Shown here in pieces: positions 5,479-22,501 of a DNA stretch of 29,457 nucleotides. The stretch lies in the UHGV virus genome UHGV-1280367; one strand, written 5' to 3'. Numbering within the stretch: position 1 is the stretch's first letter; each line of letters starts with the position of its first letter. The position numbers and the translations under genes are program-made. The DNA comes from a virus. Below the pieces are notes generated by a model that worked only from the letters and a program-made list of their open reading frames with translations, was not told the origin of the DNA and made no database searches.

Positions 5479-5727
5479 TCATGCCGCGTTGCTCACGGGA
5501 CGATATACACGTTGCTGAACAGGAGGTTTTTTACCCTGGAACTCTGCCGGGCTTGCTGCCTGACGTTCATCAAGCCAACGCTCAACTTCATCACGGTTCC
5601 ATGCGCAGCGTTTATCGGTGATATACCAGCGTTTAGGAAATTCCCCTGCGCGCTCCATACGGTCGATAGTGCTCCATGACAGTGGCACCACCGCCATGAG
5701 TTCCTTCTTACCTAATGCACCTTTCAT
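5479..5727 (-). CDS. AlpA-family DNA-binding protein (putative excisionase or regulator)
   Basis: 82 aa; the segment LSWSTIDRMERAGEFPKRWYITDKRCAWNRDEVERWL matches the AlpA/Xis-like helix-turn-helix pattern. Confidence 0.65.
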   Translation of the reverse strand: MKGALGKKELMAVVPLSWSTIDRMERAGEFPKRWYITDKRCAWNRDEVERWLDERQAASPAEFQGKKPPVQQRVYRPVSNAA

Positions 5728-5776
5728 AAATACCTCTCTTGGTTGCAGTGCGGCGCGCGTGGCGCCGCGGTGGTGG

Positions 5777-8178: not shown

Positions 8179-8255
8179 TTACCGTTGAGGTAATAATTAT
8201 GCTTATTTGGTTTGGTGTCAATAGATATGAGTTAAAAAAATTACCCGTAAGGTAA
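8179..8255. promoter_or_regulatory. Leftward early promoter/operator region with two TTACC-N5-GGTAA palindromes (8179..8193, 8241..8255)
   Basis: Two exact copies of the palindrome lie between the repressor terminator and the first leftward gene. Confidence 0.5.
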
Positions 8256-10464: not shown

Positions 10465-11246
10465 ACAACGTTTTTACCGCGATACAAAACCGTGACGGAG
10501 AAGCCCTTTCTCGCATGTCAGGTTATGAGCATCAGTACGTCAACAATGACAATGTGGTGAACATGTCAGCAGAGAGGCTTGTTGATGCCCTTTTCAAACA
10601 GCTGAAACAACTGTTTCCGGCGGCAGTGGTAACCAACCTGAAGACGCCAGAGCAGGAAGTTGCTGCAAAACAGCAGTGGATTGCTGCGTTTGCCGAAGGG
10701 GGAATACGTACCCGTGAACAGGTTTCTGCTGGTATGCGCCACGCCCGCGCCAGTGAATCTCCGTTCTGGCCGTCGCCAGGGCAATTCATCAAGTGGTGTA
10801 AAGACAGCAAGATGGTTCTTGGCGTCACCATTGACGATGTGATGGCGGAGTTTCACCGGTACAGCAAGGAAAAAAGTTTATATCCTGGTGGTCCCGAAAG
10901 ATTCCCGTGGCGGCATCCGGTTATGTACTGGGTCGTATGTGATACACGCCGTGCAATGTATCAGCGCCAGCTTAGCGAGATTGAGGTTGAGAAACACGCG
11001 CGCAGGCTGCTCGATGATTGGGCGAAAAAGGTGGCTTCCGGACAGCAGATACCCGATCCGGTGATCAGCATACAGGCAAAGCCAGAACCCATGAGTACAC
11101 CTCCGGACACAGGGAGAGACGTTTACCATCCACCAGGGCGAAGTTTCGGGTGCATGCCTAACGCCGCCACCCTGGGGGGAATAACACCGGCGCAGTGGCT
11201 GATGGAGGAATACAGGCGGGGAAAGGCGGCAGGATTTATCAAGTAA
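10446..11246 (+). CDS. Replication protein P-like helicase loader
   Basis: The block FPAAVVTNLK...QQWIAAFAEGGIRTREQVSAGMRHARASESPFWPSPGQFIKWC parallels lambda P (FPAS...RRQWVLAFRENGITTMEQVNAGMRVARRQNRPFLPSPGQFVAWC) as I recall it. Start could be GTG at 10446 or GTG at 10461 overlapping the O stop. Confidence 0.8.
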   Translation: MGGFLVNNVFTAIQNRDGEALSRMSGYEHQYVNNDNVVNMSAERLVDALFKQLKQLFPAAVVTNLKTPEQEVAAKQQWIAAFAEGGIRTREQVSAGMRHARASESPFWPSPGQFIKWCKDSKMVLGVTIDDVMAEFHRYSKEKSLYPGGPERFPWRHPVMYWVVCDTRRAMYQRQLSEIEVEKHARRLLDDWAKKVASGQQIPDPVISIQAKPEPMSTPPDTGRDVYHPPGRSFGCMPNAATLGGITPAQWLMEEYRRGKAAGFIK

Positions 11247-11251
11247 TACCA

Positions 11252-11271
11252 GCGCGATGGCGCATTTTTTT
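11252..11271 (+). terminator. Weak terminator-like hairpin plus T-run after the P-like gene
   Basis: gcgc-gatg-gcgc followed by a T7 run; the stem is only 4 bp. Confidence 0.3.
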
Positions 11272-11283
11272 ACGTCTCGATGA

Positions 11284-11360
11284 TTACCTTCTAGGTAATA
11301 AAATATTCTAAAATCTATTGATTTCGTGTCTTATGTGGTTTTTAATTACCTCAGAGGTAA
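11284..11360. promoter_or_regulatory. Two TTACC-N5-GGTAA palindromes (11284..11298, 11346..11360) upstream of the DUF1064-like gene
   Basis: TTACC-ttcta-GGTAA and TTACC-tcaga-GGTAA. The second overlaps the ribosome-binding region of the gene starting at 11364. Confidence 0.5.
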
Positions 11361-11363
11361 ATC

Positions 11364-11708
11364 ATGAGAAAACAGATACAGGCTCTTGGTCGACTCAAAA
11401 CAGGCCAGATGAACAAAACAGAATCTGCGTATTGCCAGCACCTTGAGCAGCGTAAACGTGCAGGGGAAATCGCCTGGTATCGATTCGAGGGTATCAAGCT
11501 GCGGTTAGCTGACAACACGTTCTATACGCCCGATTTTGCTGTGATGCTCGCCACCGGCGAGATGGAACTGCACGAAGTGAAAGGTTTCTGGACCGACGAC
11601 GCCAGAGTGAAAACCAAAGTCGCCGCAGATCAGTATCCGTTCCGAATCATCGGGGTAACGGTTAAACCAAAGAAAGCAGGTGGTGGCTGGAACATCGAAG
11701 AGTTCTGA
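11364..11708 (+). CDS. DUF1064-like small protein
   Basis: 114 aa; pattern AGEI...Y.PDF.V...E.HEVKG resembles the DUF1064 family common in lambdoid early regions (recognition by eye). Confidence 0.5.
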   Translation: MRKQIQALGRLKTGQMNKTESAYCQHLEQRKRAGEIAWYRFEGIKLRLADNTFYTPDFAVMLATGEMELHEVKGFWTDDARVKTKVAADQYPFRIIGVTVKPKKAGGGWNIEEF

Positions 11709-11769
11709 ATCGACGATCTTTTTAGTTATCAATGTAATCAATAAGTTATGTGGATAAGCGAGGGTAAAG

Positions 11770-12330
11770 ATGGAAAGTAATATCAAAGGGTTAGTTTACG
11801 CCGGGCATGAGATGGCTTCGGAACTGAAAGCAGAATGTGGTGCCGTTGATATGCGTAGTGTGGCAAAGCTGATCAGCGATTTGGCAACGCAACTGGAAGT
11901 GCAACTGGTGCGTGCTAATGCGATGGCGTCGGAGAATGAGGCGTTGAAGTCGAACCTGATTTACTGGGGCGGCGAAGATTCAGGGGCTGTCAGAAGTCCG
12001 CTTGATTACGCCCGTGCAGCCGGGCTGGAATCTGGAGAGGAGTTTGAGATGCAAGTGGCAGCCAGAATGCCGAACCTGACTTATCGCGTTGTGTCGAATT
12101 CCCGATTCAGAACAACAATAGAACTGGTTGACGGATCATTGCCGGAAACCCCAGCCACCGATGCTTTTCTGGCTGAAGTACGGGCGCAGGCGTTTAATGA
12201 CCTTTGCTCGGCGTTCGTTAAACACGCGAATCTCGCGGGAATGGATGATGGTGAGCTAGTGAGTCTTAAATATGCGACGGACGCCCTGCTGCATTGTGCG
12301 GAACAGCTTCGCAAAGGAGGCAACCAGTGA
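11770..12330 (+). CDS. Hypothetical protein
   Basis: 186-aa ORF with compact spacing to its neighbours; no recognisable motif. Confidence 0.4.
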   Translation: MESNIKGLVYAGHEMASELKAECGAVDMRSVAKLISDLATQLEVQLVRANAMASENEALKSNLIYWGGEDSGAVRSPLDYARAAGLESGEEFEMQVAARMPNLTYRVVSNSRFRTTIELVDGSLPETPATDAFLAEVRAQAFNDLCSAFVKHANLAGMDDGELVSLKYATDALLHCAEQLRKGGNQ

Positions 12331-12872
12331 GTGTAACGGTTGAAAAGATTGATGTGTTGTCATTCGTTATAACCGGTGCAGAGCGACTAGATCCGGTTCG
12401 AGTGATGATTGAAAACTACGAACCTGGTAAGGGAAGAATCACCATCACCAGCTACGGAAAAGCGTGGACTGCGGCTTGGTTTGCTATGGGCGGTGATGAT
12501 GTGCAGACGTTCATTAAGCGAGTCAGCAACGACTATCTAATCGACAATTTCGACCCTCAACTGCTAAGCACGGTCGACGATGACAACGATGCAAATCTGC
12601 TTTTCGTGAAGTCAGAAATCATAAAGTTACGAAGAGAGAGAGAAATCGACGCTGTACAGGCTCGCGAAATGTGGGACGAGGCGGAAAACGCCGATGACGT
12701 AAAAGAAAGCTGCTGCTGTTTCGGCGTCGGTAACAAACTACTGAATCTCTTTGGTGATGATCCGTGGTATGCCAACTGGCCAACGATACCAAACCCGAAA
12801 TACCAGTATCTGGAACGCGTACTTAATGCAGTGAGAGACGGTCTTAAGCAAATAGAGAAGGTGGAACCATGA
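12327..12872 (+). CDS. Hypothetical protein
   Basis: GTG start at 12327 overlaps the upstream stop (GTGA), with a strong AAAGGAGG ribosome-binding site 7 nt upstream. Confidence 0.45.
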   Translation: MSVTVEKIDVLSFVITGAERLDPVRVMIENYEPGKGRITITSYGKAWTAAWFAMGGDDVQTFIKRVSNDYLIDNFDPQLLSTVDDDNDANLLFVKSEIIKLRREREIDAVQAREMWDEAENADDVKESCCCFGVGNKLLNLFGDDPWYANWPTIPNPKYQYLERVLNAVRDGLKQIEKVEP

Positions 12873-13168
12873 CTGTATGTCTTATTGATAAACGTCGACG
12901 TGGGCAACAAATACCATCTGTTGAAATGCCGAATCACACATGGTTTTGCGTACTTGATATCGATGGTATGGATACGTTGGTTGACACTCGTCATTACTGC
13001 GATACCGCAACAGCTACTCCGGCGAAAGCAAAGAAAATGGCTGCTCTGATAGAAAACTGGACTCCACCTGATGGTTGGTGCAATGGGAATGATCGAGATT
13101 GGCACGAAAAAATGAAGGGCTATATCTGCGATTTTTTACGTAAATGCAACGGCTTCAGGGTGATGTGA
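12869..13168 (+). CDS. Hypothetical protein
   Basis: 99-aa ORF overlapping the upstream stop. Confidence 0.4.
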   Translation: MTVCLIDKRRRGQQIPSVEMPNHTWFCVLDIDGMDTLVDTRHYCDTATATPAKAKKMAALIENWTPPDGWCNGNDRDWHEKMKGYICDFLRKCNGFRVM

Positions 13169-13169
13169 C

Positions 13170-13454
13170 ATGAGCAAGATTGACTATCAGGCACTGCGTG
13201 AAAAGGCAGAGAAAGCAACGTGTGGTGTGTGGTCGCTCGAATATGGAGAGGGCCGATTTGATGGTGATGATGCACTAATTCATCGCGAGGCTGCTGGGTA
13301 TATTCCCATTTGCAGAATTGAAGGAGCGCATCCAGAAAGCGGTTTCGATGAAGATTTCCAAATGGATTCGAAAGAATGCATTGACGTAATTCGTGAAGAA
13401 GTAAAGCGATGGAATGATTCCCGCGCCGCTGGTATTCGCATCAAAGGAGAGTGA
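13170..13454 (+). CDS. Ea22-like small protein
   Basis: N-terminal DYQALREKAEKATCGVW resembles the ead/Ea22-like family motif (recognition by eye). Confidence 0.45.
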   Translation: MSKIDYQALREKAEKATCGVWSLEYGEGRFDGDDALIHREAAGYIPICRIEGAHPESGFDEDFQMDSKECIDVIREEVKRWNDSRAAGIRIKGE

Positions 13455-13455
13455 G

Positions 13456-13647
13456 ATGAACGGACAAATATCAATTGTTCGACCAGGAGCATGTGACGAT
13501 CGCGAAATACGAATGATTATTCGTCTGGCGAGGGGGAAAACAATAACTGCTCTCATTACTCCAGAAAATCTCGCATTAGCATTAACCGGAAAGTCAGACC
13601 TGCCAGTAGAGCTAAAGCTGCGAAATGTTGAGATTAAGGTGAAATAG
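13456..13647 (+). CDS. Hypothetical small protein (63 aa)
   Basis: ATG at 13456 with a GGAGAG ribosome-binding site, directly after the upstream stop. Confidence 0.35.
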   Translation: MNGQISIVRPGACDDREIRMIIRLARGKTITALITPENLALALTGKSDLPVELKLRNVEIKVK

Positions 13648-13649
13648 TT

Positions 13650-14402
13650 ATGAATACTCTTACCAAAGAATGGTTACAGAACACGATTACCGGAATTGAG
13701 TCGATAATAGACGATAAATCGTTTGTATGTAGTGAAATAGCATTCGAAATAGGTGTGGTTAACAACATACTTACCGCATTTAAAATTGCACTGGCATCGC
13801 TGGCAGCAGTATCGGATGAACGGGCAGCCTATGAATTATTTATGGAGAAGCGTTTCGGGGAATCTGTAGATCGCCGCAGGGCAAAAAATGGTGATAGAGA
13901 ATACATGGCATGGGATATGGCGCTTGGCTGGATTATCTGGTGTCACCGCGCCGCCATGCTTCAGGGAGGCCAACCTGTAAACCAAACTTACAACTTGCCA
14001 GAATTAATCGAAGGCATGGAAGTTTCCATTGATGTAAGCACTTGTGATGCTGATTTAGGTAATCGCTATTTCGGCACCGTCACCGAGGCGTTAGAACTTG
14101 ATACTGCCAAGAATGGTTACATCCTCCTGGTTCAGGACGCAGAGCCAAACTTCGATGTAAATGGCAACTCTCCGGCAACTCCGGATAGTTGGATAAGCTG
14201 TAGTGAGCGAATGCCGGAAGACACCAAAATGTTACTGGCATTTAGTCAAGGTGAAATCGTGGCCGCATATTGGAACTGGGTTGTAAATCCAATTGATTAC
14301 AAAAAATACAGAGCTTTCACGTATTTATCAGGAAATATCCTAGATGACGTAACCCACTGGATGCCGCTGCCAGAACCGCCGCAGGAGGTTAACCGTGGCT
14401 AA
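13650..14402 (+). CDS. DUF551-domain protein
   Basis: C-terminal ...SERMPED...THWMPLPEPP is the characteristic DUF551 ending (recognition by eye). Confidence 0.55.
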   Translation: MNTLTKEWLQNTITGIESIIDDKSFVCSEIAFEIGVVNNILTAFKIALASLAAVSDERAAYELFMEKRFGESVDRRRAKNGDREYMAWDMALGWIIWCHRAAMLQGGQPVNQTYNLPELIEGMEVSIDVSTCDADLGNRYFGTVTEALELDTAKNGYILLVQDAEPNFDVNGNSPATPDSWISCSERMPEDTKMLLAFSQGEIVAAYWNWVVNPIDYKKYRAFTYLSGNILDDVTHWMPLPEPPQEVNRG

Positions 14403-14676
14403 CCTGCAACTTGCCGTCAAAGGTGAATACTTCGATGCCATGATTCGCGGAGATAAAACGGAAGAGTATCGCCTGTGTAATGACTACTGGGAAAAGCGAA
14501 TTATGTTCCGGGAATATGACCGCCTGATTATCACAAAGGGATATCCGAAGCGTGACGATTCCAGCCGCAGAATTGACGTTCCGTATGGCGGCTATGAAAT
14601 CAAGACAATCACACATCCGCACTTCGGCGATAAACCGGTAAAGGTATACGCGATAAAGGTAAATATTGATGGCTAA
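14395..14676 (+). CDS. DUF3850/ASCH-like small protein
   Basis: 93 aa; the start of the protein, LAVKGEYFDAMIRGDKTEEYR, resembles the DUF3850 fold family (recognition by eye). Confidence 0.4.
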   Translation: MANLQLAVKGEYFDAMIRGDKTEEYRLCNDYWEKRIMFREYDRLIITKGYPKRDDSSRRIDVPYGGYEIKTITHPHFGDKPVKVYAIKVNIDG

Positions 14677-15007
14677 ATCAGCAGCAGAGCGCAAAGCCGC
14701 TCAGAGAGCCAGACAAGCTGCATCTGGTGTACGTAAGCTGGAGATTGTGCTTGATGCTCAGGAAATTGAAATGCTGGAGCGTAACTGTGCCACACGTCGC
14801 CCCGGGCGTGCGCCTTACGAATTTGGTGAGTATATAGCGTTACTGATCCGCCAGGATGATGCACGCGTGCGCGGGCGTATAAAATCGATCAGCAGAAAAC
14901 GTTGCGGTAAGTGCGGCGAGAGAGTTCCTGTGAATTCATGCCCGTGTAATGGTGACTCGCAATGCTGGGTAACCAAAGGCTGGCATGAAACGAAATTAAT
15001 AGTGTGA
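14669..15007 (+). CDS. Putative ribbon-helix-helix-like DNA-binding protein with C-terminal Cys-rich zinc finger; candidate late-gene regulator
   Basis: N-terminal ERKAAQRARQAASGVRKLEIVLDAQEIEMLER resembles RHH regulators; C-terminal CGKCGER...CPCNGDSQC cysteine cluster. ATG at 14669 (the track starts at a TTG at 14666). Confidence 0.35.
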   Translation: MAKSAAERKAAQRARQAASGVRKLEIVLDAQEIEMLERNCATRRPGRAPYEFGEYIALLIRQDDARVRGRIKSISRKRCGKCGERVPVNSCPCNGDSQCWVTKGWHETKLIV

Positions 15008-15024: not shown

Positions 15025-15237
15025 ATGCCAAAAATACGCTACGACCTTGAAGATATGAGAGATAACTCAGCAAATTTTCCGAAAGAGGTTAAATTTCTCA
15101 TGCATAAGTATGGTTGCGCCAGGAGGGATATAGTTATCGACAGTCAGCACCCTTGCGGCGAGGATGTAATTTTCATTCGCGGTAAATGGGAAGGGTATCT
15201 TGACGAGAGTTTTTACGATGAATTTGATGGACTTTGA
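15025..15237 (+). CDS. Hypothetical small protein
   Basis: ATG at 15025 preceded by a GAAGGTG ribosome-binding site (the track ORF starts at a GTG at 15004). Confidence 0.35.
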   Translation: MPKIRYDLEDMRDNSANFPKEVKFLMHKYGCARRDIVIDSQHPCGEDVIFIRGKWEGYLDESFYDEFDGL

Positions 15238-15279
15238 ATACTGCCGCCAACTATGGCGGCTTTATTTTGCATGGTACTA

Positions 15280-15312
15280 TTACCACAACGGTAACTATTA
15301 CCACGGTGGTTA
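15280..15312. promoter_or_regulatory. Two operator-like palindromes immediately upstream of terS (15280..15294, 15298..15312)
   Basis: TTACC-acaac-GGTAA and the weaker variant TTACC-acggt-GGTTA, ending at the terS start codon. Confidence 0.4.
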
Positions 15313-15908
15313 TGATGCCTGCTGAACCTAAAACCTATAAACGCAAATCAACGCAATTTAAGCCACTAACAGCAATGCAGGAGGCTTATTGCCAGTCATA
15401 CATCAAAACGCCTGAAAACCAGACTCAGGCAGCGATTAACGCAGGATTCTCCCCAAATACAGCGGCAGTTAAAGCCAGTGTCATGATGCGCGATGAACGC
15501 ATTCAAAAACGGATTGCCGAGCTGATGGAAGAGCGCAACAAACGAATGCGCGTCAGTGCTGATTACGTTCTCATGCGCCTGGTGGAGATCGACCAGATGG
15601 ACGTGATCGACATCCTCAACGACGATGGGAGCCTTAAGCCAATCCGCGAGTGGCCGAAAATCTGGCGCACTACGCTTAGCGGCTTTGATCTGTCATCGAC
15701 CATCATGAACATGAACGAGGATTCGATAGAGACAATCCTCAAAAAAATTAAATGGCCTGACAAGGTGAAGAACCTCGAACTGATTGGTAAGCACGTCGAC
15801 GTCAACGCATTCAAAGAACGCCTGGATGTTAATGTGAATGTGACAATTGCTGATCGCATAGCAGCAGCCAGGAAGCGACTCAAAGAACGTCAGGATGGTA
15901 ATCAGTGA
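15312..15908 (+). CDS. terS: Terminase small subunit
   Basis: From the ATG at 15312 (MMPAEPKT...): QEAYCQSYIKTPENQTQAAINAGFSPNTAAVKASVMMRDERIQKRI is a typical small-terminase N-terminal DNA-binding region. The track's longer N-terminal extension is low-complexity. Confidence 0.7.
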   Translation: MMPAEPKTYKRKSTQFKPLTAMQEAYCQSYIKTPENQTQAAINAGFSPNTAAVKASVMMRDERIQKRIAELMEERNKRMRVSADYVLMRLVEIDQMDVIDILNDDGSLKPIREWPKIWRTTLSGFDLSSTIMNMNEDSIETILKKIKWPDKVKNLELIGKHVDVNAFKERLDVNVNVTIADRIAAARKRLKERQDGNQ

Positions 15909-17380
15909 CAGATACAGCGTTATCTCCTGAAGAGCAGTTGATCGAGGATATTGCAGGGTTCACTCACGATCCGCTTGGCTATGCTCTCTATGCGTTCCCG
16001 TGGGGGGAAGAGGGGACTGAACTGGCACATGCTACCGGCCCACGTCAATGGCAGGCTGATGCGTTCCGAGAGATACGTGATCACCTGCAGAATCCAGAGA
16101 CGCGCTATCAGCCGCTTATGCTGGCACGCGCTTCTGGTCACGGTATTGGTAAATCCGCATTTATCTCAATGCTGATCAACTGGGGCATGTCCACTTGCGA
16201 GGATTGTAAGGTCGTGGTGACCGCCAACACCGACAACCAGCTACGAACGAAGACCTGGCCGGAAATTATCAAGTGGTCAAACCTTGCTATCACGAAAGAC
16301 TGGTTTACCTGTACCGCTACCGCGATGTACAGCAATGACCCTGGGCACGACAAGCGGTGGCGAGCTGACGCAATCCCCTGGTCTGAGCACAACACTGAGG
16401 CATTCGCCGGACTACACAACGAGCGCAAACGCATCATCGTGGTATTCGATGAAGCGTCGAATATTGCCGATCTTGTGTGGGAGGTAGCAGAGGGTGCGCT
16501 GACGGACGAAGACACCGAAATCATCTGGGTGGCGTTCGGGAACCCGACGCGTAACACCGGGCGTTTCCGTGAATGTTTCCGCAAGTACAAACACCGCTGG
16601 AAGTGTGCGCAGATTGACAGCCGGACGGTGGAAGGCACTAACAAACAGCAGTTGCAGAAATGGGTTGATGACTACGGGGAAGACAGCGACTTCGTTAAAA
16701 TCCGTGTGCGCGGCATATTCCCTGATGCATCTGAATTGCAGTTTATCCCTACCGGTCTTACTGATGAGGCAATGAAACGGGTGGTAACCGCTGCGCAGGT
16801 TGCACATGCTCCGGTGATAATCGGCGTTGACCCGGCATACTCAGGCGTTGATGACGCGGTGATATACCTGCGGCAGGGGCTGCACAGTAAGGTGCTGTGG
16901 ACTGGCAACAAGACTACTGACGATCTGATTATGGCGAAGCGTATCGCTGACTTTGAAGACCAGTACCAGGCTGACGCAGTGTTCATCGACTTCGGTTACG
17001 GAACTGGTCTGAAGTCAATCGGTGACGGCTGGGGTCGTACATGGCAACTTGTTCCGTTCGGTGGCGCGTCTACTGACCCGCAGATGCTCAATAAGCGCGG
17101 GGAGATGTTCAACTCATGCAAGACATGGCTGAGGCTGGGCGGCATGCTGGATGACCAGGAAACAGCGGACGACCTGTCGGCGGCAGAGTACAAAGTTCGA
17201 GTGGACGGTAAAATCGTTATCGAACCGAAGGAAGATATCAAGGAGCGGCTTGGGCGCTCGCCGGGTAAAGGCGATGCGCTACTGCTGACGTTTGCTTTCC
17301 CTGTGTCGAAGCGTCTGCGAATTCCCGGGCAGCAGAACCAGCAAGGCAAGGCCATCACAGATTACGATCCCTATGATTAA
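15905..17380 (+). CDS. terL: Terminase large subunit
   Basis: 491 aa. Walker A-like ARASGHGIGKS and Walker B-like IIVVFDEAS, with a nuclease-like C-terminal half. GTG start overlaps the terS stop. Confidence 0.85.
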   Translation: MTDTALSPEEQLIEDIAGFTHDPLGYALYAFPWGEEGTELAHATGPRQWQADAFREIRDHLQNPETRYQPLMLARASGHGIGKSAFISMLINWGMSTCEDCKVVVTANTDNQLRTKTWPEIIKWSNLAITKDWFTCTATAMYSNDPGHDKRWRADAIPWSEHNTEAFAGLHNERKRIIVVFDEASNIADLVWEVAEGALTDEDTEIIWVAFGNPTRNTGRFRECFRKYKHRWKCAQIDSRTVEGTNKQQLQKWVDDYGEDSDFVKIRVRGIFPDASELQFIPTGLTDEAMKRVVTAAQVAHAPVIIGVDPAYSGVDDAVIYLRQGLHSKVLWTGNKTTDDLIMAKRIADFEDQYQADAVFIDFGYGTGLKSIGDGWGRTWQLVPFGGASTDPQMLNKRGEMFNSCKTWLRLGGMLDDQETADDLSAAEYKVRVDGKIVIEPKEDIKERLGRSPGKGDALLLTFAFPVSKRLRIPGQQNQQGKAITDYDPYD

Positions 17381-17430
17381 TCCGCTGGTGGGGATAATGT
17401 CGTTGATATCCTCTGATGAGGATAAAACAA

Positions 17431-17450
17431 AGCCAGCTCATCGGCTGGCT
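17431..17450. terminator. Hairpin after terL and downstream of the reverse cargo gene, possible bidirectional terminator
   Basis: agccagc-tcatcg-gctggct; on the minus strand it is followed by a T-rich tract (ttgtttta). A second hairpin lies at 17407..17424. Confidence 0.4.
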
Positions 17451-17470
17451 GTTTGTGACATGTCACAGAG

Positions 17471-17893
17471 CTAGAAAATAATTTCATCAAATGCAGCATT
17501 TATTGCCTTTGCTTCGCTAATGGCGCCTTGTTTATCGACAATAGCTTTTTTACCAAGCACCTCGGCAAGGCACTGTAGCTTCATGTTGTATAAGTGTTCG
17601 CTCATGTAATCATTATCACTTTTTGCTTTAGCGCAAACAGAGCGAGAAATATCAAACACATCGCCTTTTTCCATTTCAGAACGTTGTGCTGTTATCCAGT
17701 CATGGAACGTAACGCTAGTACCATGGTCTTCTCTAAGAGTTAACCCGGTCAGCCCCTCACTCTGAATTACTTCGTAATGCATTTCATTACCAGCAAAAAC
17801 GCCATAAAAAATGCAGTCTTCAGCCTGAACGATACGAGAATATTTTAATGGCCATTCATTTAGATACTTAGCCAACATATCAATTGTCTTCAT
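17471..17893 (-). CDS. Reverse-oriented cargo gene of unknown function (140 aa)
   Basis: The only minus-strand gene inside the late region. Visibly more AT-rich than its flanks. Ribosome-binding site AAGGTGAG ahead of the ATG. No motif I recognise; soluble, no transmembrane segment. Confidence 0.6.
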   Translation of the reverse strand: MKTIDMLAKYLNEWPLKYSRIVQAEDCIFYGVFAGNEMHYEVIQSEGLTGLTLREDHGTSVTFHDWITAQRSEMEKGDVFDISRSVCAKAKSDNDYMSEHLYNMKLQCLAEVLGKKAIVDKQGAISEAKAINAAFDEIIF

Positions 17894-17904
17894 AATCTCA
17901 CCTT

Positions 17905-17930
17905 AAAAAAATGCCCGGCGAACCGGGCGA
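17905..17930 (-). terminator. Intrinsic terminator (minus strand) between the tRNA and the cargo gene
   Basis: Minus-strand reading gcccgg-ttcg-ccgggc followed by ttttttt, then the cargo-gene ribosome-binding site and ATG. Confidence 0.65.
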
Positions 17931-18092
17931 ACTGGAAGCAATGAGTTATGCCTTCCGTGGCTGTACTGGTTTACAGCATGAAGTCATCGCAATGGCGTCC
18001 TGCTGTAAAAAGGGCGGTGATAGTCCTTCAAGGGAAACCATCACCGCCAAGCCCCCTGGAACTTCTGGCATCACGGTCCTTAGGCGTGATTC

Positions 18093-18169
18093 TGGCGTGG
18101 CATGCAGGATTCGAACCTGCGACCAACCGCTTAGAAGGCGGTTGCTCTGTCCAGCTGAGCTAATGCCAC
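18093..18169 (-). tRNA. tRNA-Arg, anticodon UCU
   Basis: Minus-strand sequence GTGGCATTAGCTCAGCTGGACAGAGCAACCGCCTTCTAAGCGGTTGGTCGCAGGTTCGAATCCTGCATGCCACGCCA folds by eye into a cloverleaf: 7-bp acceptor stem, D arm GCTC/GAGC, anticodon loop CTTCTAA, T arm GCAGG-TTCGAAT-CCTGC, encoded CCA. Close to E. coli argU as I recall it. Confidence 0.85.
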
Positions 18170-18491
18170 AACGCTGAGAGCACTTAGCCTGTTAAGGCGC
18201 CACACTTTGTCGCGGCTCCATAAATGCTCTCATCGTTGTACCCTCGTCTCTTCCGAGGTGTCACACCGAATCGCCTGGATGGTGAATCCCCGTGCGCGGA
18301 ATAAAACCGCTCGACTTGCACATTCCGGCTACCTGGTTCGTTTGCCCGAGCAAGGGAGGGTGCCCCTTAAACGTATCCAGACCGCTATCGGCGCATGTGC
18401 CATACGCCGTACTGCTCAAAATAAAAGCTCACTCCACCTGTTCAATTTAACGACAAGCCAGTCAGGTTAGTAACCGGAATGAACTCTTTGG

Positions 18492-18506
18492 TTACCTGAA
18501 AGGTAA
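18492..18506. promoter_or_regulatory. Operator-like palindrome TTACC-tgaaa-GGTAA upstream of the portal region
   Basis: Exact copy of the recurring motif, about 90 bp before the small ORF at 18597. Confidence 0.4.
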
Positions 18507-18596
18507 TAATTCGTGCGTTAAATGTCAACTGTCTACGATAAATAAATCATATGTGGTTAAATTGGTAATAATTTAATTGCGTACGGAGTCATTGAT

Positions 18597-18803
18597 ATGT
18601 GCATGGGTAGCTCACCATCAGTGCCTGCAACACCAGAAGTTCAGGCAGCACCACAGGAGCAGGATGCCGCCGTTGTTGATGCCCGCGACGAAGAAACTCG
18701 TCGCCGTCGCGCTGCTGCTGGTCGTAGTTCTACGCTGCTTACCGGTTCTCAGGGCGACACATCAACCGCTAATACCAGCGGTAAAACGCTGCTTGGTCAG
18801 TAA
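18597..18803 (+). CDS. Small low-complexity protein upstream of the portal gene (68 aa)
   Basis: ATG preceded by ggagtcattga, the same ribosome-binding context as the portal start (ccggagtcattga). Ala/Arg/Thr-rich. The overlapping ORF 18577..18816 in another frame is the less likely alternative. Confidence 0.35.
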   Translation: MCMGSSPSVPATPEVQAAPQEQDAAVVDARDEETRRRRAAAGRSSTLLTGSQGDTSTANTSGKTLLGQ

Positions 18804-18817
18804 CCGGAGTCATTGAA

Positions 18818-20497
18818 ATGGCGGAAACAACTAAAGAGCGATTGAACAAACAGTTCGCACAACTTGAAAGCGAGCGTCAGTCGTTCGAGCCGCACTGGCG
18901 CGAGTTGAGTGATTACATCAACCCGCGTGGTTCCCGCTTTCTGACTTCTGAGGTCAACCGTAACGATCGACGCAATACACGCATTATTGATTCGACCGGG
19001 ACTATGGCGGCGCGCACTCTCGCCAGCGGCATGATGTCAGGCATCACAAGCCCCGCGCGTCCGTGGTTTCGCCTGGCTACGCCAGATCCTGAAATGATGG
19101 ATTATGGCCCTGTTAAGTTGTGGCTTGAGGCGGTGCAGAACCGCATGAACGATATGTTCAATAAGTCGAATCTCTATCAGTCGCTGCCGCAGTTATACGG
19201 AAGCCTCGGCACATACAGCACTGGTGCAATGGCAGTGCTGGAGGATGACGAGGACATCATTCGCACAATGCCATTCCCGATAGGAAGTTACTACCTGGCT
19301 AACTCACCTCGTGGCAGTGTGGACACCTGTTTTCGCAAGTTCTCTATGACTGTTCGTCAGCTTGTTCAGGAGTTCGGGCTAAATAACGTCAGCGAATCCG
19401 TAAAAAGCATGTGGGAAAGCGGCACCTACGAGAAGTGGATTGAAGTGATGCATTCGGTTTACCCGAACATTGACCGCGATACATCGAAGCTGGATAGCAA
19501 GAACAAGCCATTCAAATCGGTTTATTACGAGGTTGGTGGCGATAACGACAAGTTGTTGCGTGAGTCCGGATTCGATGAGTTTCCAATTATGGCTCCGCGC
19601 TGGGAAGTTAACGGCGAAGATGTTTATGGATCATCATGCCCGGGTATGCTGGCGCTTGGACCTGTTAAGGCATTGCAGCTTCTCCAGAAGCGCAAGTCGC
19701 AGTTGATTGATAAAGCCACCAATCCGCCGATGGTTGCTCCGACTTCCCTCAAGAATCAGCGCGCCTCCCTTCTTCCTGGCGACATCACGTATATCGATCA
19801 GATTACTGGTCATGATGGTTTCAGGCCTGCTTATCTGGTTAACCCCAGTACAGCAGATTTGGTGGCAGACATTCAGGACACTCGTCAAATCATTAACAGC
19901 GCCTACTTTGTCGATCTGTTCATGATGTTGCAGAACATCAATACCCGCTCGATGCCTGTTGAAGCGGTGATCGAAATGAAAGAAGAAAAACTTCTGATGT
20001 TGGGGCCGGTTCTGGAGCGTCTGAACGACGAATGTCTTAATCCTCTCATTGACCGCGCTTTCTCGATGATGGTGCGTAAAAACATGCTGCCGCCACCGCC
20101 TGACGCGATGGAAGGTATGCCCCTGAAGGTCGAATACATTTCCGTCATGGCTCAGGCGCAGAAGTCTATCGGCCTGTCCAGTCTGGCGTCTACGGTCAAC
20201 TTCATTGGTCAACTTGCGCAAGCGAAACCAGAAGCTCTCGACAAACTCAACGTTGATCAGGCGATCGATGCATTCGCTGATATGTCCGGAGTGTCTCCAA
20301 CCGTCATTGTTCCGCAGGAACAGGTTGAGCAGGCTCGCCAGCAACGGGCACAGCAACAACAGCAGCAACAAATGATGGAGATGGGGATGGCGGCGGCACA
20401 GGGTGCCAAGACGCTAAGCGAAGCTAAAACTTCGGATCCGAGTGTTTTGTCAGCTATGGCGAATGCAGTTAGTGGTCAGGGTGGGCAATCACAATGA
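18818..20497 (+). CDS. Portal (head-to-tail connector) protein, T7 gp8-like
   Basis: 559 aa. The C-terminal Gln-rich tail QARQQRAQQQQQQQMMEMGMAAAQGA parallels the T7 gp8 C-terminus (QKQQKMAQQSMQMGMDNGAAALAQG) as I recall it. Size and position fit. Confidence 0.75.
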   Translation: MAETTKERLNKQFAQLESERQSFEPHWRELSDYINPRGSRFLTSEVNRNDRRNTRIIDSTGTMAARTLASGMMSGITSPARPWFRLATPDPEMMDYGPVKLWLEAVQNRMNDMFNKSNLYQSLPQLYGSLGTYSTGAMAVLEDDEDIIRTMPFPIGSYYLANSPRGSVDTCFRKFSMTVRQLVQEFGLNNVSESVKSMWESGTYEKWIEVMHSVYPNIDRDTSKLDSKNKPFKSVYYEVGGDNDKLLRESGFDEFPIMAPRWEVNGEDVYGSSCPGMLALGPVKALQLLQKRKSQLIDKATNPPMVAPTSLKNQRASLLPGDITYIDQITGHDGFRPAYLVNPSTADLVADIQDTRQIINSAYFVDLFMMLQNINTRSMPVEAVIEMKEEKLLMLGPVLERLNDECLNPLIDRAFSMMVRKNMLPPPPDAMEGMPLKVEYISVMAQAQKSIGLSSLASTVNFIGQLAQAKPEALDKLNVDQAIDAFADMSGVSPTVIVPQEQVEQARQQRAQQQQQQQMMEMGMAAAQGAKTLSEAKTSDPSVLSAMANAVSGQGGQSQ

Positions 20498-20790
20498 CAG
20501 ATTACGAAGACGATCAACTGAAAGAAGAAAACGCCCGTAAGCAACGTGACATGGCGCAGCGTGAAATTGATGACATTCGCTTTGTCATGAGCAGTGAACA
20601 GGGGCGTCGCGTTGTCTGGTCTGTGCTGGAGAAAGGCCGGGTGTTTTCCGCTATCTCTCCGATGGACGCTATGGCAATGGCATTTTATGAGGGGCAACGC
20701 AATCTGGCGCTGGAGCTGTTTCAGCGCGTTATGGCGCATTGCCCTGAACAGTATTTGAAGATGGCCAAAGAGGCCAGTGAACAGGAGTGA
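20494..20790 (+). CDS. Hypothetical head-assembly protein
   Basis: 98-aa ORF translationally coupled between the portal and scaffold genes. Confidence 0.4.
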   Translation: MTDYEDDQLKEENARKQRDMAQREIDDIRFVMSSEQGRRVVWSVLEKGRVFSAISPMDAMAMAFYEGQRNLALELFQRVMAHCPEQYLKMAKEASEQE

Positions 20791-20792
20791 TC

Positions 20793-21500
20793 ATGAATTT
20801 ATTTGAGCGTTTGCTGTATCGCCGTCTTTGCAATGAGCAATCCACTGAAGGTGGCCAGGCAGATACAGCTTCAACGGGAGCAACTGAAACCACTCAGGGC
20901 TCGGGTGAAATGCAGGAGCAAACCCAGTCGCAGGATAACTCCCAGGGGACTGACTCTGAGAAAGGTTCTGAAGCTCAGAAAACTGAGGGAGAGCTTGCTG
21001 CTGAAAAAGCCAATACCGAAGAAGCAGAAAAGGATAAGAAGCCAGAGGGTGCGCCTGAGAAGTACGAGTTTCAGGCTGCCGAAGGCGTAGAGCTGGATAC
21101 AGAAGCGTTGAAGGAATTCGAGCCGGTGGCGCGAGAACTTAACCTGACCAACGAGCAAGCGCAAAAGCTGGTTGATGCTTATCCGAAGATTCTGGCAGGT
21201 GTTCAGCAGCGCCAGGCAGAAGCCTGGCAGAAAACAACCGAGCAGTGGGCTGCGGATGTAAAAGCTGACAAAGAAATCGGTGGCGACAAGTTGATTTCTA
21301 ACCTTAGCGCCGCACAGCGTGCGCTTGACCAGTTCGGGACACCTGAACTCAAAGAATATCTGAACACCACCGGGCTGGGTAATCACCCTGATCTGGTCAA
21401 AACGTTCGTGAAAATCGGAAAGGCGATGTCTGAAGATGGCATGGTCACCGGTGGTAATGAAGGCCAGCGTAGTGCGGCCGAAGTGCTCTATGGCAAATAA
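20793..21500 (+). CDS. Scaffolding protein
   Basis: Highly acidic, Glu/Gln/Lys-rich, predicted-helical protein between the portal and capsid genes. ATG at 20793 with an AGGAG ribosome-binding site. Confidence 0.65.
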   Translation: MNLFERLLYRRLCNEQSTEGGQADTASTGATETTQGSGEMQEQTQSQDNSQGTDSEKGSEAQKTEGELAAEKANTEEAEKDKKPEGAPEKYEFQAAEGVELDTEALKEFEPVARELNLTNEQAQKLVDAYPKILAGVQQRQAEAWQKTTEQWAADVKADKEIGGDKLISNLSAAQRALDQFGTPELKEYLNTTGLGNHPDLVKTFVKIGKAMSEDGMVTGGNEGQRSAAEVLYGK

Positions 21501-21514
21501 GAGAGGAAATGACA

Positions 21515-22501
21515 ATGGCTGTTAAAGGCTTAACTGCGCTAACGCTGGCTGACTGGGGTAAGCGCGTCGATCCAAACGGGAAAGTCGATAAGATTATCGA
21601 GCTTCTCGGTCAAACTAACCCGATCCTTCAGGATATGCCTTTTGTCGAAGGGAACCTTCCTACCGGACACCGAACCACCATTCGTTCTGGTTTACCTTCA
21701 GCTACCTGGCGTTTGCTGAACTATGGCGTACAGCCAAGCAAATCAACCACAGTGCAGGTCACCGACTCCGTTGGCATGCTGGAAACCTATGCTGAAGTCG
21801 ATAAGTCACTGGCTGATCTGAACGGTAATACCGCCGAATTCCGCCTGTCTGAAGACCGCGCATTTATTGAAGCGATGAATCAGCAGATGGCGCAGACGCT
21901 GTTTTATGGTGATTCCAGCGTTAACCCTCAGCAGTTTATGGGACTGTCCTCCCGCTATTCCAGCCTGTCTGCGGGTAATGCTCAGAACATCATTGATGCT
22001 GGTGGCACGGGTACAGATAACACCTCAATCTGGTTAGTGGTGTGGGGCGAAAACACCGTGCATGGCATCTTCCCGAAAGGGCAGAAGGCTGGCATCCAGA
22101 TGGAAGATAAAGGCCAGGTGACACTGGAAGATGCTAATGGCGGCAAGTACGAAGGCTATCGCACCCATTACAAATGGGATAACGGACTTGCTCTGCGTGA
22201 CTGGCGTTATGTTGTTCGCATTGCAAACATCGATGTCAGCAATCTTTCAGAACCTTCCTATGCCGCAAATATTGCGAAGTTGATGGTTAAAGCACTGCAT
22301 CGCATTCCAAACCGTGGCATGGGCCGCCCGGTGTTCTACATGAACCGCACTGTAGGCCAGGCTCTTGATCTGCAGTCTCTGGAGAAAACATCTCTGGCTA
22401 TCAGCGTAAAGGAGACTGAAGGCGAGTGGTGGACTTCATTCCGTGGTGTACCAATCCGTGAAACTGATGCGCTTCTGGAAACAGAAGCCCGCGTGGTGTA
22501 A
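21515..22501 (+). CDS. Major capsid protein
   Basis: About 330 aa directly after the scaffold gene, with a GAGAGGA ribosome-binding site 7 nt upstream of the ATG at 21515. Assigned by position and size only. Confidence 0.65.
   Translation: MAVKGLTALTLADWGKRVDPNGKVDKIIELLGQTNPILQDMPFVEGNLPTGHRTTIRSGLPSATWRLLNYGVQPSKSTTVQVTDSVGMLETYAEVDKSLADLNGNTAEFRLSEDRAFIEAMNQQMAQTLFYGDSSVNPQQFMGLSSRYSSLSAGNAQNIIDAGGTGTDNTSIWLVVWGENTVHGIFPKGQKAGIQMEDKGQVTLEDANGGKYEGYRTHYKWDNGLALRDWRYVVRIANIDVSNLSEPSYAANIAKLMVKALHRIPNRGMGRPVFYMNRTVGQALDLQSLEKTSLAISVKETEGEWWTSFRGVPIRETDALLETEARVV

What the first reader, a model, noticed from the sequence alone, without database searches (positions are those of the whole stretch)
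17381..18590. Reverse-oriented cargo cassette (unknown 140-aa gene plus tRNA-Arg) inserted between terL and portal
Terminase and portal genes are normally adjacent, but here they are separated by about 1.4 kb carrying a minus-strand tRNA-Arg(UCU), an intrinsic terminator, and an AT-rich 140-aa gene with no motif I recognise, bounded by hairpins. An insertion in the late operon with its own transcription signals is the classic signature of a moron. Such genes often encode superinfection exclusion, anti-defence or host-fitness functions, but this function is unknown.
Basis: partly seen in the sequence, partly recalled or inferred. Interest (0 to 1): 0.8.

Follow-up and report, generated by a model that had tools for sequence, protein, structure and literature searches.

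The report
Swappable accessory-gene slot with unannotated RNA
Between the terminase and portal genes of this epsilon15/phiV10-like E. coli phage lies a backward-facing unit, present across the genus, made of an undescribed structured RNA, a tRNA-Arg and one interchangeable gene position that in relatives holds known anti-defence genes and here holds a 140-aa protein with no recognisable fold.

Summary
terL ends at 17380. A conserved, AT-rich 140-aa gene lies at 17471-17893 on the minus strand and tRNA-Arg(UCU) at 18093-18169 on the minus strand, with hairpins on both sides of the gene.

It is not a one-off insertion. Every epsilon15/phiV10-like phage (Uetakevirus) I examined has this antisense unit. 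Only the coding sequence is exchanged: compared with phiV10, the replaced stretch is 17467-17894.

Across 70 related loci the position holds at least 19 protein families. These include Tad2-like and Acb2/Tad1-hairpin anti-defence proteins, and the family of this gene.

It has strong covariation and no Rfam match. It occurs in 2150 of 5426 complete E. coli genomes and is unannotated in all 40 listed rows. It also sits at the head of the PL operon in lambdoid phages with no N gene annotated or detected nearby, and in the P1 ban operon. Its function is unknown; a put-like antiterminator is one candidate.

The parts
15905..17380 (+). terL (large terminase), which converges on the accessory unit
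   Evidence: 491-aa ORF. It is 99% identical to phiV10 PhiV10p02, annotated as putative terminase large subunit.
17431..17450 (.). T3: hairpin that ends the minus-strand unit. The same hairpin is annotated in phiV10 as the rho-independent terminator after terL. It marks the left boundary of the exchangeable stretch.
   Evidence: Terminator scan, minus strand, 7 pairs followed by TTGTTTTATC. phiV10 annotation at 2238-2257. Homology with phiV10 ends at 17466.
17471..17893 (-). ORF140: the cargo gene (phrog_4846). It encodes an acidic 15.9-kDa protein with an alpha/beta N-domain (residues 1-75), a poorly modelled linker and a C-terminal helical hairpin (93-137).
   Evidence: AF2 models. dN/dS 0.17-0.29, GC 39.2%, pI 5.0. 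No family or fold match.
17897..17904 (-). Shine-Dalgarno sequence AAGGTGAG, 3 nt before the ATG. It belongs to the 5' UTR shared by different cargo genes.
   Evidence: Read from the sequence. The 5' UTR is conserved in E15, Klebsiella and Enterobacter relatives that carry other cargo.
17905..17928 (-). T2: GC hairpin GCCCGGTTCGCCGGGC followed by a U-tract, directly upstream of the cargo SD. It marks the right boundary of the exchangeable stretch.
   Evidence: Terminator scan. Homology with phiV10 resumes at 17895. Conserved across the genus.
18005..18048 (-). T1: 14-pair hairpin followed by CTTTTTACAG, downstream of the tRNA. An equivalent hairpin with a TTTTTACA tail follows the RNA module in lambdoid phage cdtI.
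18093..18169 (-). tRNA-Arg, anticodon UCU
   Evidence: ARAGORN. Rfam RF00005, 71.7 bits. Present in 30 of 128 loci that carry the leader RNA.
18176..18231 (-). 3' hairpin module (GAGAGCA ... TGCTCTC with a variable interior) between the RNA core and the tRNA
   Evidence: Read. The same module with the same flanks occurs in cdtI.
18220..18411 (-). Conserved structured RNA core, with 8 predicted helices. It is not in Rfam.
   Evidence: nhmmer E 2.5e-42. RNAalifold gives 36 pairs, 13 of them with compensatory changes. Shuffle and slide controls. No Rfam match at E up to 5.
18491..18528 (-). Putative promoter of the antisense unit: -35 TTGACA at 18528-18523, a 17-nt spacer, and -10 TACCTT at 18505-18500. 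It overlaps an operator-like palindrome, ATTACC-N5-GGTAAC, at 18507-18491.
   Evidence: Read. These columns are invariant in 7 phages. The same TTGAC-17-TACCTT arrangement precedes the RNA in unrelated contigs. epsilon15 annotates repressor and IHF sites here. The motif AATTATTACC is enriched, 6 matches against 1.5 expected.
18564..18573 (-). Second copy of the AATTATTACC operator-like motif, on the side of the rightward (68-aa ORF and portal) genes
18597..18803 (+). Genus-conserved 68-aa ORF immediately upstream of the portal gene (epsilon15 gp3, phrog_831). It is not part of the cargo.
   Evidence: tblastn hits in nearly all related loci.
18818..20497 (+). Portal (head-to-tail connector) gene
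   Evidence: PF12236, E 3.6e-187.

Best explanation
The region is the conserved antisense accessory unit of an epsilon15/phiV10-like temperate phage (Uetakevirus). It is not a private insertion.

Reading the minus strand, the unit runs as follows:
1. A sigma-70-type promoter overlapped by a repressor-operator-like palindrome (about 18528-18491).
2. A roughly 190-nt structured RNA (18411-18220) followed by a hairpin module.
3. tRNA-Arg(UCU).
4. Two intrinsic terminators, T1 and T2.
5. A shared 5' UTR with a Shine-Dalgarno sequence.
6. One exchangeable coding sequence, here ORF140.
7. A terminator, T3, shared with terL.

Shown:
- the anatomy;
- that only the coding sequence is exchanged between close relatives;
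- that the slot carries at least 19 unrelated families, including Tad2-like and Acb2-like anti-defence proteins;
- that ORF140 is a selected, family-restricted protein with no known domain or fold;
- that the leader is a covarying structured RNA.

Inferred:
- When repression is lifted, host RNA polymerase transcribes the RNA and the tRNA.
- The tRNA supplies AGA decoding, which the phage's early genes use about three times more often than the E. coli average as I recall it.
- The fraction of polymerases that pass T1 and T2 express ORF140 early.
- ORF140 acts in the cytoplasm as a counter-defence or host-takeover factor (about 0.45 for counter-defence specifically).
- Its C-terminal helical hairpin, which also occurs alone and fused to other N-domains, probably serves as an oligomerisation or common-partner module, with the N-domain as the specific part.
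For: Genus-wide unit with different minus-strand genes:
- phiV10p03 (PF13876), TL-2011b gp23, SPN9TCW_003, an E15 130-aa gene, and a Klebsiella phage Tad2-like gene.
- The exchange boundaries are 17467 and 17894.

Slot survey of 70 loci:
- 19 families: 23 members of the PF13876 family, 11 of a 292-aa TM/coiled-coil family, 9 of the ORF140 family, 6 of a Cys-rich family, 2 of the Tad2-like family and 1 of the Acb2 family.
- Tad2-like is PF11195, E 4e-26. Acb2/Tad1 hairpin is PF24729, E 3.6e-17.

ORF140:
- 80 homologues, and all those examined lie in this slot.
- Found in 62 of 5426 E. coli genomes.
- dN/dS 0.17-0.29.
- Only 32 cluster representatives among 1.84 billion proteins.
- The C-terminal module recombines with other N-domains.

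Promoter and operator:
- These columns are invariant.
- The same operator-like motif (AATTATTACC / ATTACC-N5-GGTAAC) lies at a TTGACA-containing stretch next to the HTH repressor gene.
- The epsilon15 record annotates repressor sites here.

AGA codons:
- 6.8 per 1000, concentrated in early genes and absent from terL, portal and capsid.

RNA:
-.
Against: - No promoter-like site lies between T2 and the ATG or between T1 and T2. ORF140 expression therefore depends on read-through of two terminators, or on a signal I cannot see.
- There are no expression data.
- The anti-defence assignment rests only on what occupies the same position in other phages.
- ORF140 shows no relation to Acb2 or Tad2 (hhalign probability below 1%).
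- The commonest cargo (PF13876) and most other cargo families have no known function.
- One frequent cargo (292 aa, TM plus coiled coil) looks more like an exclusion or abortive-infection protein than an anti-defence protein.
- The operator assignment rests on sequence similarity and on another record's computational annotation.
Confidence: 0.6

Rival explanations
1. Classical moron. ORF140 is expressed from the prophage and benefits the lysogen, for example by superinfection exclusion, by acting as a defence gene, or by improving host fitness.
For: - AT-rich foreign composition and flanking hairpins.
- Presence or absence differs between near-identical phages.
- A frequent alternative cargo is a 292-aa membrane/coiled-coil protein with weak coiled-coil matches to LmuB and PD-Lambda-1 models.
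- The gene is carried as a prophage gene in 62 E. coli genomes.
Against: - There is no promoter of its own.
- The only upstream promoter overlaps an operator-like palindrome shared with the early-left promoter.
- No PADLOC match.
- ORF140 has no membrane segment or signal peptide (sequence).
- The same slot holds Tad2-like and Acb2-like genes, which serve the infecting phage.
Confidence: 0.2
2. Concerning the leader RNA: it is a cis-acting processive antiterminator. It would work like the put RNAs of HK022 and HK639 without being related to them, letting RNA polymerase pass T1 and T2 to reach the cargo here, and substituting for N at PL in some lambdoid phages.
For: - It lies directly downstream of the PL-type promoter, right after cI, in cdtI, Stx2a_WGPS2 and mEp390, none of which has an annotated or Pfam-detectable N nearby.
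- In cdtI and in this window, strong terminators stand between it and the next genes.
- Terminator-like hairpins are enriched downstream on the sense strand: 1.64, against 0.99 antisense and 0.44 in the coding control.
- G-U pairs fix the transcribed strand.
Against: - There is no sequence similarity to HK022 putL or HK639 putL.
- 30 of 121 loci have no terminator within 700 nt downstream.
- epsilon15 has lost the 3' two-thirds of the RNA yet keeps T2 and a cargo gene.
- In P1 it sits in the middle of an operon with no terminator before ban.
- Only one copy was seen per locus, so no putR-like partner was found.
Confidence: 0.25
3. Concerning the leader RNA: it is a stable trans-acting RNA (regulatory sRNA, protein sponge or decoy). 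It would be released from the early transcript by tRNA-type processing or by termination, and the tRNA and cargo merely share its promoter.
For: - Helices and loop sequences are conserved independently of what follows, whether tRNA, tRNA-like inserts, protein genes or a terminator.
- The loop and junction sequences are invariant.
- In some contigs a terminator follows directly (L035).
- It is adjacent to tRNAs in Uetakeviruses and in P1, which would give RNase P and 3' processing sites. By analogy, phage T4 has small stable RNAs co-transcribed with its tRNAs (from my own knowledge).
Against: No target, binding protein or expression data are known. There is no Rfam relative. Its position is always promoter-proximal in early operons, which a purely trans-acting RNA would not require.
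Confidence: 0.3
4. ORF140 is a conserved virion-assembly component or a spurious, untranslated ORF. These are the first reader's own refutation conditions.
For: Its position between terL and portal, and nothing else.
Against: - It is absent from phiV10, epsilon15, TL-2011b and SPN1S, which make virions.
- Purifying selection, full-length conservation down to 38% identity and a good SD argue against a spurious ORF.
Confidence: 0.03

Closest known systems
phiV10 PhiV10p03 and the epsilon15 365-nt gene (PF13876, N4 gp49 / Sf6 gene 66 family), at the same position
   Same: The same slot, strand, 5' UTR (T2 hairpin plus SD) and downstream terminator. In Klebsiella and Enterobacter relatives an ORF140 homologue and a PF13876 gene sit in tandem.
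   Different: The protein is unrelated, and the function of PF13876 is also unknown.
Tad2 (PF11195) and Acb2 (PF24729) anti-defence proteins
   Same: They occupy the identical slot in related phages. They are small cytoplasmic proteins.
   Different: There is no sequence or profile similarity to ORF140. No ligand-binding or oligomer evidence exists for ORF140.
Morons of HK97/HK022-type phages (gene with its own promoter and terminator between late genes)
   Same: An accessory gene of deviant composition between structural genes, bounded by hairpins and variable among relatives.
   Different: It has no promoter of its own. It is embedded in a genus-wide, probably repressor-controlled unit with an RNA and a tRNA. 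No relative has terL and portal adjacent.
HK022/HK639 put antiterminator RNAs
   Same: A structured RNA just downstream of an early, repressor-controlled promoter, in lambdoid phages with no N gene annotated or detected nearby.
   Different: It is unrelated in sequence, has about 190 nt and 8 helices against about 70 nt and 2 stems, and is not always followed by terminators.
Phage P1 ban operon (C1-controlled; dicF-like region, tRNA-Asn, tRNA-Thr, tciABC, tRNA-Ile, ban)
   Same: It contains the same RNA core (80.7% identity over 163 nt) immediately after a tRNA gene in an early repressor-controlled operon.
   Different: The P1 copy lacks the last hairpin (model positions 3-152) and is followed by ban, not by terminators and a cargo slot.

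Membership tests
Moron (accessory transcription unit inserted between late genes) | The flanking genes are adjacent in related phages. | tested here: not met
   No relative was found with terL next to the 68-aa ORF and portal. All examined carry the antisense unit. Only the coding sequence varies.
Moron (accessory transcription unit inserted between late genes) | A promoter of its own immediately upstream and a terminator downstream. | tested here: inconclusive
   The downstream terminator T3 is present. No promoter-like site lies between T1 and the ATG. The nearest promoter is about 600 nt upstream and is shared with the RNA and tRNA.
Moron (accessory transcription unit inserted between late genes) | Base composition unlike the surrounding genome. 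| tested here: met
   39.2% GC against 49.0%.
Moron (accessory transcription unit inserted between late genes) | Expressed from the repressed prophage. | not testable with these tools
   An operator-like palindrome over the -10 suggests the opposite, but this is inference.
Phage anti-defence gene | Located in a locus that carries known anti-defence genes in related phages. | tested here: met
   Tad2-like PF11195 and Acb2/Tad1 hairpin PF24729 occupy the same slot.
Phage anti-defence gene | Homology or fold similarity to a characterised anti-defence protein. | tested here: not met
Phage anti-defence gene | Neutralises a defence system. | not testable with these tools
   Needs experiments.
tRNA-Arg(UCU) | Cloverleaf with anticodon UCU that scores above the family threshold. 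| tested here: met
   ARAGORN. RF00005 at 71.7 bits against a gathering score of 29.
put-type processive antiterminator RNA (HK022/HK639) | Sequence or structure related to putL/putR. | tested here: not met
   nhmmer found only a 14-nt chance match inside nun. putL of HK022 and HK639 were read directly and are unrelated.
put-type processive antiterminator RNA (HK022/HK639) | Lies just downstream of an early promoter and upstream of terminators in the same operon. | tested here: inconclusive
   True here and in cdtI and Stx2a_WGPS2. 30 of 121 loci have no terminator within 700 nt.
put-type processive antiterminator RNA (HK022/HK639) | Acts in cis on RNA polymerase through the beta-prime zinc-binding domain. 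| not testable with these tools
   Needs reporter assays and rpoC mutants.
Any Rfam 15 family (for the leader RNA) | Reaches the gathering score, or at least E below 5, for a covariance model. | tested here: not met
   On the RNA strand, within 18220-18411, there is nothing at E up to 5.
Virion or assembly protein | Conserved in all related phages. | tested here: not met
   Absent from phiV10, epsilon15, TL-2011b and SPN9TCW.

The most novel reading that the evidence does not exclude
The roughly 190-nt RNA at 18411-18220 (-) is a new class of phage early-operon RNA. It would be a protein-independent processive antiterminator unrelated to put. It would gate read-through of T1 and T2 into an interchangeable anti-defence gene slot in Uetakeviruses. 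It would also replace N at PL in a large group of lambdoid prophages and act in the P1 ban operon. On this reading ORF140 is a new anti-defence family with a new fold, whose dose is set by that RNA.
Probability: 0.2. Interest if true: 0.88.

Novelty: new variant of a known kind. Interest (0 to 1): 0.68.

Why it matters
This matters for two practical reasons.

First, the slot is a compact, well-delimited place to look for anti-defence genes. It has one shared 5' UTR and one shared terminator, and it holds at least 19 interchangeable families. Two of them are already known counter-defence proteins. The others are therefore ready-made candidates for new phage counter-defence proteins. They include the ORF140 family, whose N-domain matches no solved fold, and its C-terminal hairpin, which also occurs on its own.

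Second, the leader RNA is present in about 40% of complete E. coli genomes, in P1-like plasmid prophages, and in species representatives of 13 genera of Enterobacterales. It matches no Rfam family and is unannotated in all 40 listed rows. It always sits in early, repressor-controlled operons. In several lambdoid phages it occupies the place where N and nutL or put would be. Working out what it does could reveal a new mode of early gene control in temperate phages.

Tried and rejected
**ORF140**
- Pfam at E up to 10 on all 27 aligned homologues gave only scattered chance hits.
- NCBIfam and PADLOC gave nothing.
- A PDB profile search gave nothing.
- BFVD gave only uncharacterised viral proteins over the N-domain, best E 8e-4.
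- afdb50 was not available.
- I considered a Tad2-like relation for the N-domain, because both begin with a helix followed by a W-containing turn and strands. hhalign rejected it.
- hhalign also rejected an Acb2-like relation for the C-terminal hairpin.

**Leader RNA**
- It is not coding: indels between relatives are not multiples of three.
- It is not a put homologue. The 14-nt match in HK022 lies inside the nun coding sequence.
- Full-text searches for its sequence strings, and for a P1 ban-operon RNA, found nothing relevant.
- The King et al. 2011 paper on HK639 put could not be retrieved.
- Four of the 27 exact 18-mer hits in genomes (Azonexus and three MAGs) did not extend and are chance matches. 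About 17 such matches are expected in 596 Gb.

**Slot survey**
- The first ORF-based survey merged unrelated cargo through a shared read-through N-terminal extension. I redid it anchored on T2.
Full report
**1. What the window is**

The region 17300-18900 is 98.7% identical to Escherichia phage HEMP4 and 92% identical to vB_EcoP_PAS61. Apart from one replaced stretch, it is 97-98% identical to phiV10, ZX5 and the O157 typing phages 9 and 10, which are Uetakeviruses (epsilon15-like temperate podophages).

The genes are as follows:
- terS: 15234-15908
- terL: 15905-17380
- portal: 18818-20497 (PF12236)

**2. Checking the observation**

- The 140-aa ORF is at 17471-17893 (-).
- tRNA-Arg(UCU) is at 18093-18169 (-).
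- The ORF has 39.2% GC against 49.0% for the window.
- The minus strand carries three terminator-like hairpins:
  - T1, 18048-18013: 14 pairs followed by CTTTTTACAG.
  - T2, 17928-17913: GCCCGGTTCGCCGGGC followed by seven U.
  - T3, 17450-17431.
- T2 is followed at once by AAGGTGAG-ATT-ATG, the Shine-Dalgarno sequence and start codon of the ORF.
It is epsilon15 gp3 / phrog_831 and is conserved just upstream of the portal gene in nearly all related loci that reach that far.
- The ORF at 17911-18177 (+), annotated as a protein in phiV10 (p04) and TL-2011b (gp24), lies antisense to the tRNA and the terminators. It is probably not a gene.

**3. The unit is a genus-wide fixture; only the coding sequence is exchanged**

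Every relative examined has a minus-strand gene between terL and the 68-aa ORF:

| Phage | Gene in the slot |
|---|---|
| phiV10 | p03, 123 aa, PF13876 |
| TL-2011b | gp23, 115 aa |
| SPN9TCW | 003, 168 aa |
| E15-type phages | a 130-aa PF13876 gene |
| Klebsiella phage ST512-KPC3phi13.3 | 173 aa, Tad2-like domain (PF11195, E 4e-26) |
| Klebsiella and Enterobacter prophages | ORF140 homologue followed by a PF13876 gene |

Against phiV10, homology holds for 17201-17466 (95%) and 17895-18900 (99%). The replaced stretch is therefore 17467-17894, which is the coding sequence and little else. The T2 hairpin with its SD and the T3 hairpin are shared by phages with different cargo.

I anchored on T2 in 70 terL-containing loci from IMG/VR, GenBank and assemblies. 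The genes that follow fall into 19 families:
- PF13876: 23 members.
- A 292-aa membrane plus coiled-coil protein: 11.
- The ORF140 family: 9. In 3 loci it sits in tandem with PF13876, and in one with the 90-aa family C5.
- A Cys-rich 147-aa protein: 6.
- Tad2-like: 2.
- One Acb2/Tad1-hairpin protein (PF24729, E 3.6e-17).
- Others.

The slot is thus a hypervariable accessory position. Two of its occupants belong to families that Pfam names as anti-Thoeris and anti-CBASS proteins.

**4. The ORF140 protein**

- It belongs to phrog_4846, of unknown function.
- It has 80 homologues in E. coli, Citrobacter, Salmonella, Enterobacter and Klebsiella, down to 38% identity. All are named hypothetical.
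- All contexts examined are this same slot.
- The gene occurs in 62 of 5426 complete E. coli genomes, always on the chromosome.
- Pairwise dN/dS against the window copy is 0.17-0.29.
- The protein is acidic (pI 5.0) and has no hydrophobic segment.
- A profile search of 1.84 billion representatives found only 32 proteins, so the family is narrow.
- The hits show modularity. The C-terminal roughly 45 residues (LYxxKLQCL...AINAAFDKI) occur alone (44-70 aa) or fused to unrelated N-termini. Some members carry a further C-terminal extension.

Structure prediction gave the following:
- The AlphaFold model of the whole protein has pLDDT 79.8 and pTM 0.50. It shows an alpha/beta N-domain, a disordered linker (81-90) and a helical hairpin.
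- The N-domain modelled alone reaches pLDDT 90.2 and pTM 0.78.
- BFVD gave only uncharacterised viral proteins.
- Pfam, NCBIfam, PADLOC and PDB sequence searches were negative.
- Profile comparisons with the Acb2-like and Tad2-like slot proteins were negative.

The function therefore cannot be read from homology. The only functional evidence is the company the gene keeps.

**5. How the gene is likely expressed**

No promoter-like site lies between T1 and the ATG. About 600 nt upstream, on the same strand, a stretch of roughly 100 nt is almost invariant among E. coli, Salmonella, Klebsiella and Enterobacter phages whose genes are only 60-80% identical.

This stretch contains:
- TTGACA (18528-18523).
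- A 17-nt spacer.
- TACCTT (18505-18500).
- An overlapping palindrome, ATTACC-N5-GGTAAC.

The same TTGAC-17-TACCTT arrangement, with a similar palindrome, precedes the RNA in unrelated contigs such as L084.

The motif AATTATTACC occurs three times exactly in the window: at 18502, at 18564 and at 8189. Allowing one mismatch there are 6 matches against 1.5 expected. The 8189 copy lies in a TTGACA-containing stretch with ATTACC-N5-GGTAA palindromes, immediately beside the HTH (Cro/CI-type) repressor gene at 8313-8897. The epsilon15 record annotates "repressor" and IHF sites at the equivalent place.

I infer that the antisense unit is an early, repressor-controlled transcription unit. ORF140 would be its distal gene, reached only by polymerases that pass T1 and T2. 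This is inference; there are no expression data.

**6. The tRNA**

AGA makes up 6.8 per 1000 codons in the window's ORFs. It is concentrated in the early and regulatory genes (9649-15007) and is absent from terL, portal and the capsid gene. E. coli uses AGA at roughly 2 per 1000 (my own knowledge). A supply role early in infection is plausible. A role as a nuclease-resistant replacement tRNA cannot be tested here.

The tRNA is not a constant part of the unit. Only 30 of 128 loci carrying the leader RNA have it. In some relatives its place, between the GTGG and CCAC flanks, is taken by other structured inserts that ARAGORN does not call.

**7. The overlooked feature: a conserved structured RNA**

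The 420 nt between the tRNA and the 68-aa ORF are conserved at 70-80% even in Klebsiella phages. They are not coding, because the indels are not multiples of three.

Distribution:
- A 21-mer from this stretch occurs in at least 120 IMG/VR contigs. These fall into 48 clusters at 88% identity.
- About 40% of all loci with the element (57 of 142) have no Uetakevirus terL or portal nearby.
- A profile locates one copy per locus; in the window it is at 18411-18220 (-) (E 2.5e-42).

Structure, from RNAalifold on 23 diverse sequences:
- 36 pairs in 8 helices are predicted, and 13 pairs show compensatory changes.
- 94.9% of cells are paired, against 28-42% when partners are slid.
- The 13 covarying pairs compare with 6.7 ± 1.2 in shuffles (0 of 500 reach 13) and with 2-4 in slid controls.
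- The last hairpin, held constant by my seed, covaries in independently found copies: CCUCG/CGAGG becomes CCUGG/CCAGG or CCCGG/CCGGG.
- Frequent G-U pairs fix the strand as that of the tRNA.

Status in databases and the literature:
- No Rfam 15 family matches it, even at E up to 5.
- It is present in 2150 of 5426 complete E. coli genomes, at 2920 places, 554 of them on plasmids. None of the 40 listed rows has an annotated feature.
- It occurs in 23 species-representative genomes from 13 genera of Enterobacterales.
- No paper in the library contains its sequence strings.

Contexts:
- In P1 and P7-like phages it lies between trnI and ban, in the C1-controlled ban operon.
- In the lambdoid phages cdtI, Stx2a_WGPS2 and mEp390 it lies right after cI. 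It faces the leftward early genes and sits behind a TTGACA/CATAAT promoter. No N gene is annotated or detectable by Pfam nearby.
- In cdtI it is followed by the same 3' hairpin module, then a tRNA-like insert, then a hairpin with a TTTTTACA tail equivalent to T1.
- In most non-Uetakevirus contigs the first real genes are 400-800 nt further on. They are a mEp390 gp35-like protein and a ParB-like protein, or orf39 plus DUF2303.
- epsilon15 itself has a deletion that joins the loop of helix 4 to the loop of T1, which share the sequence TTCCCTTGATGCT. The deletion removes the rest of the RNA and the tRNA.

**8. What the RNA might do**

Its position behind early promoters of lambdoid phages that lack a recognisable N recalls putL of HK022 and HK639. 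I read both put sequences from the genomes, and they are unrelated to this RNA.

Terminator-like hairpins are enriched downstream on the sense strand: 1.64 per 700 nt, against 0.99 on the antisense strand and 0.44 in a coding control. However, 30 of 121 loci have none. P1 also has none before ban.

I put the hypotheses at:
- put-like antiterminator: about 0.25
- stable trans-acting RNA: about 0.3
- the remainder: a processing or stability leader, or something not yet imagined

**9. Verdict**

ORF140 is accessory cargo with moron-like composition and boundaries, and an anti-defence role is the best-supported guess. But it is one occupant of a conserved, probably early and repressor-controlled antisense unit, not a private insertion with its own promoter.

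ORF140 itself is a new member of a known kind: cargo of unknown function in a phage accessory hotspot. What raises the interest of the locus is the architecture (leader RNA, tRNA, two terminators and an exchangeable coding sequence) together with the widespread, unannotated structured RNA.

Noticed in passing
window 18220-18411 (-); also L132 2501-2669 (P1), L134 2501-2690 (cdtI), L136 3001-3190, L137 2439-2598: A structured RNA of about 190 nt with 13 covarying pairs and no Rfam match. It is present in 2150 of 5426 complete E. coli genomes, and none of the 40 listed rows has an annotated feature. It sits at the head of early, repressor-controlled operons in three unrelated phage groups.
   Followed up: yes
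window 18491-18590; 8189-8198: An almost invariant intergenic stretch of about 100 nt with two copies of AATTATTACC. A third copy lies in a TTGACA-containing stretch beside the HTH repressor gene (8313-8897). These are probably operators of the phage repressor, so the region between the antisense unit and the portal-side genes looks repressor-controlled.
   Followed up: partly
L133 2700-2790 (epsilon15) compared with window 18005-18411: epsilon15 has a deletion between two copies of TTCCCTTGATGCT, one in the loop of RNA helix 4 and one in the loop of T1. It removes most of the RNA and the tRNA but keeps T2 and a cargo gene.
   Followed up: partly
L005 about 5700-5900, L008 about 5400-5900, L134 2741-2860: Where this window has tRNA-Arg, some relatives have other structured inserts between the same GTGG...CCAC flanks. 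One is a tRNA-like sequence with a long insertion. ARAGORN calls none of them.
   Followed up: no
window 17911-18177 (+): An 88-aa ORF antisense to the tRNA and terminators. It is annotated as a hypothetical protein in phiV10 (p04) and TL-2011b (gp24), and is probably a mis-annotation.
   Followed up: partly
window 18597-18803 (+): A 68-aa ORF rich in Ala, Arg and Gln (MCMGSSPSVPATPEVQ...; phrog_831, epsilon15 gp3). It is conserved immediately upstream of the portal gene in nearly all related loci that reach that far. Its function is unknown.
   Followed up: no
window 9649-15007 compared with 15905-22501: AGA codons are concentrated in the early and regulatory genes (up to 6 per gene) and absent from terL, portal and the capsid gene. 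This fits a tRNA-Arg(UCU) needed early in infection, not late.
   Followed up: partly
proteins P0092-P0096, P0099, P0104; L070 and L087 slot genes: The C-terminal helical hairpin of ORF140 (LYxxKLQCL...AINAAFDKI) occurs as a stand-alone 44-70-aa ORF and fused to unrelated N-domains. P0047, P0088 and P0109 carry a further conserved C-terminal extension (...HPHxSVI(I/V)xS...).
   Followed up: partly
L059 and 10 other loci, same slot: A frequent alternative cargo is a 292-aa protein with an N-terminal membrane region and a long coiled coil. It gives weak matches to LmuB, DruC and PD-Lambda-1 models that are probably due to the coiled coil. It may be an exclusion or abortive-infection protein.
   Followed up: no
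L035 (and L092, L095, L124), just downstream of the RNA core: In some lambdoid contigs the RNA core is followed by a terminator-like hairpin and then TGCTCTTTAACAA, an exact match to the rrn-type boxA consensus. This suggests a nut-like site right after the element.
   Followed up: no
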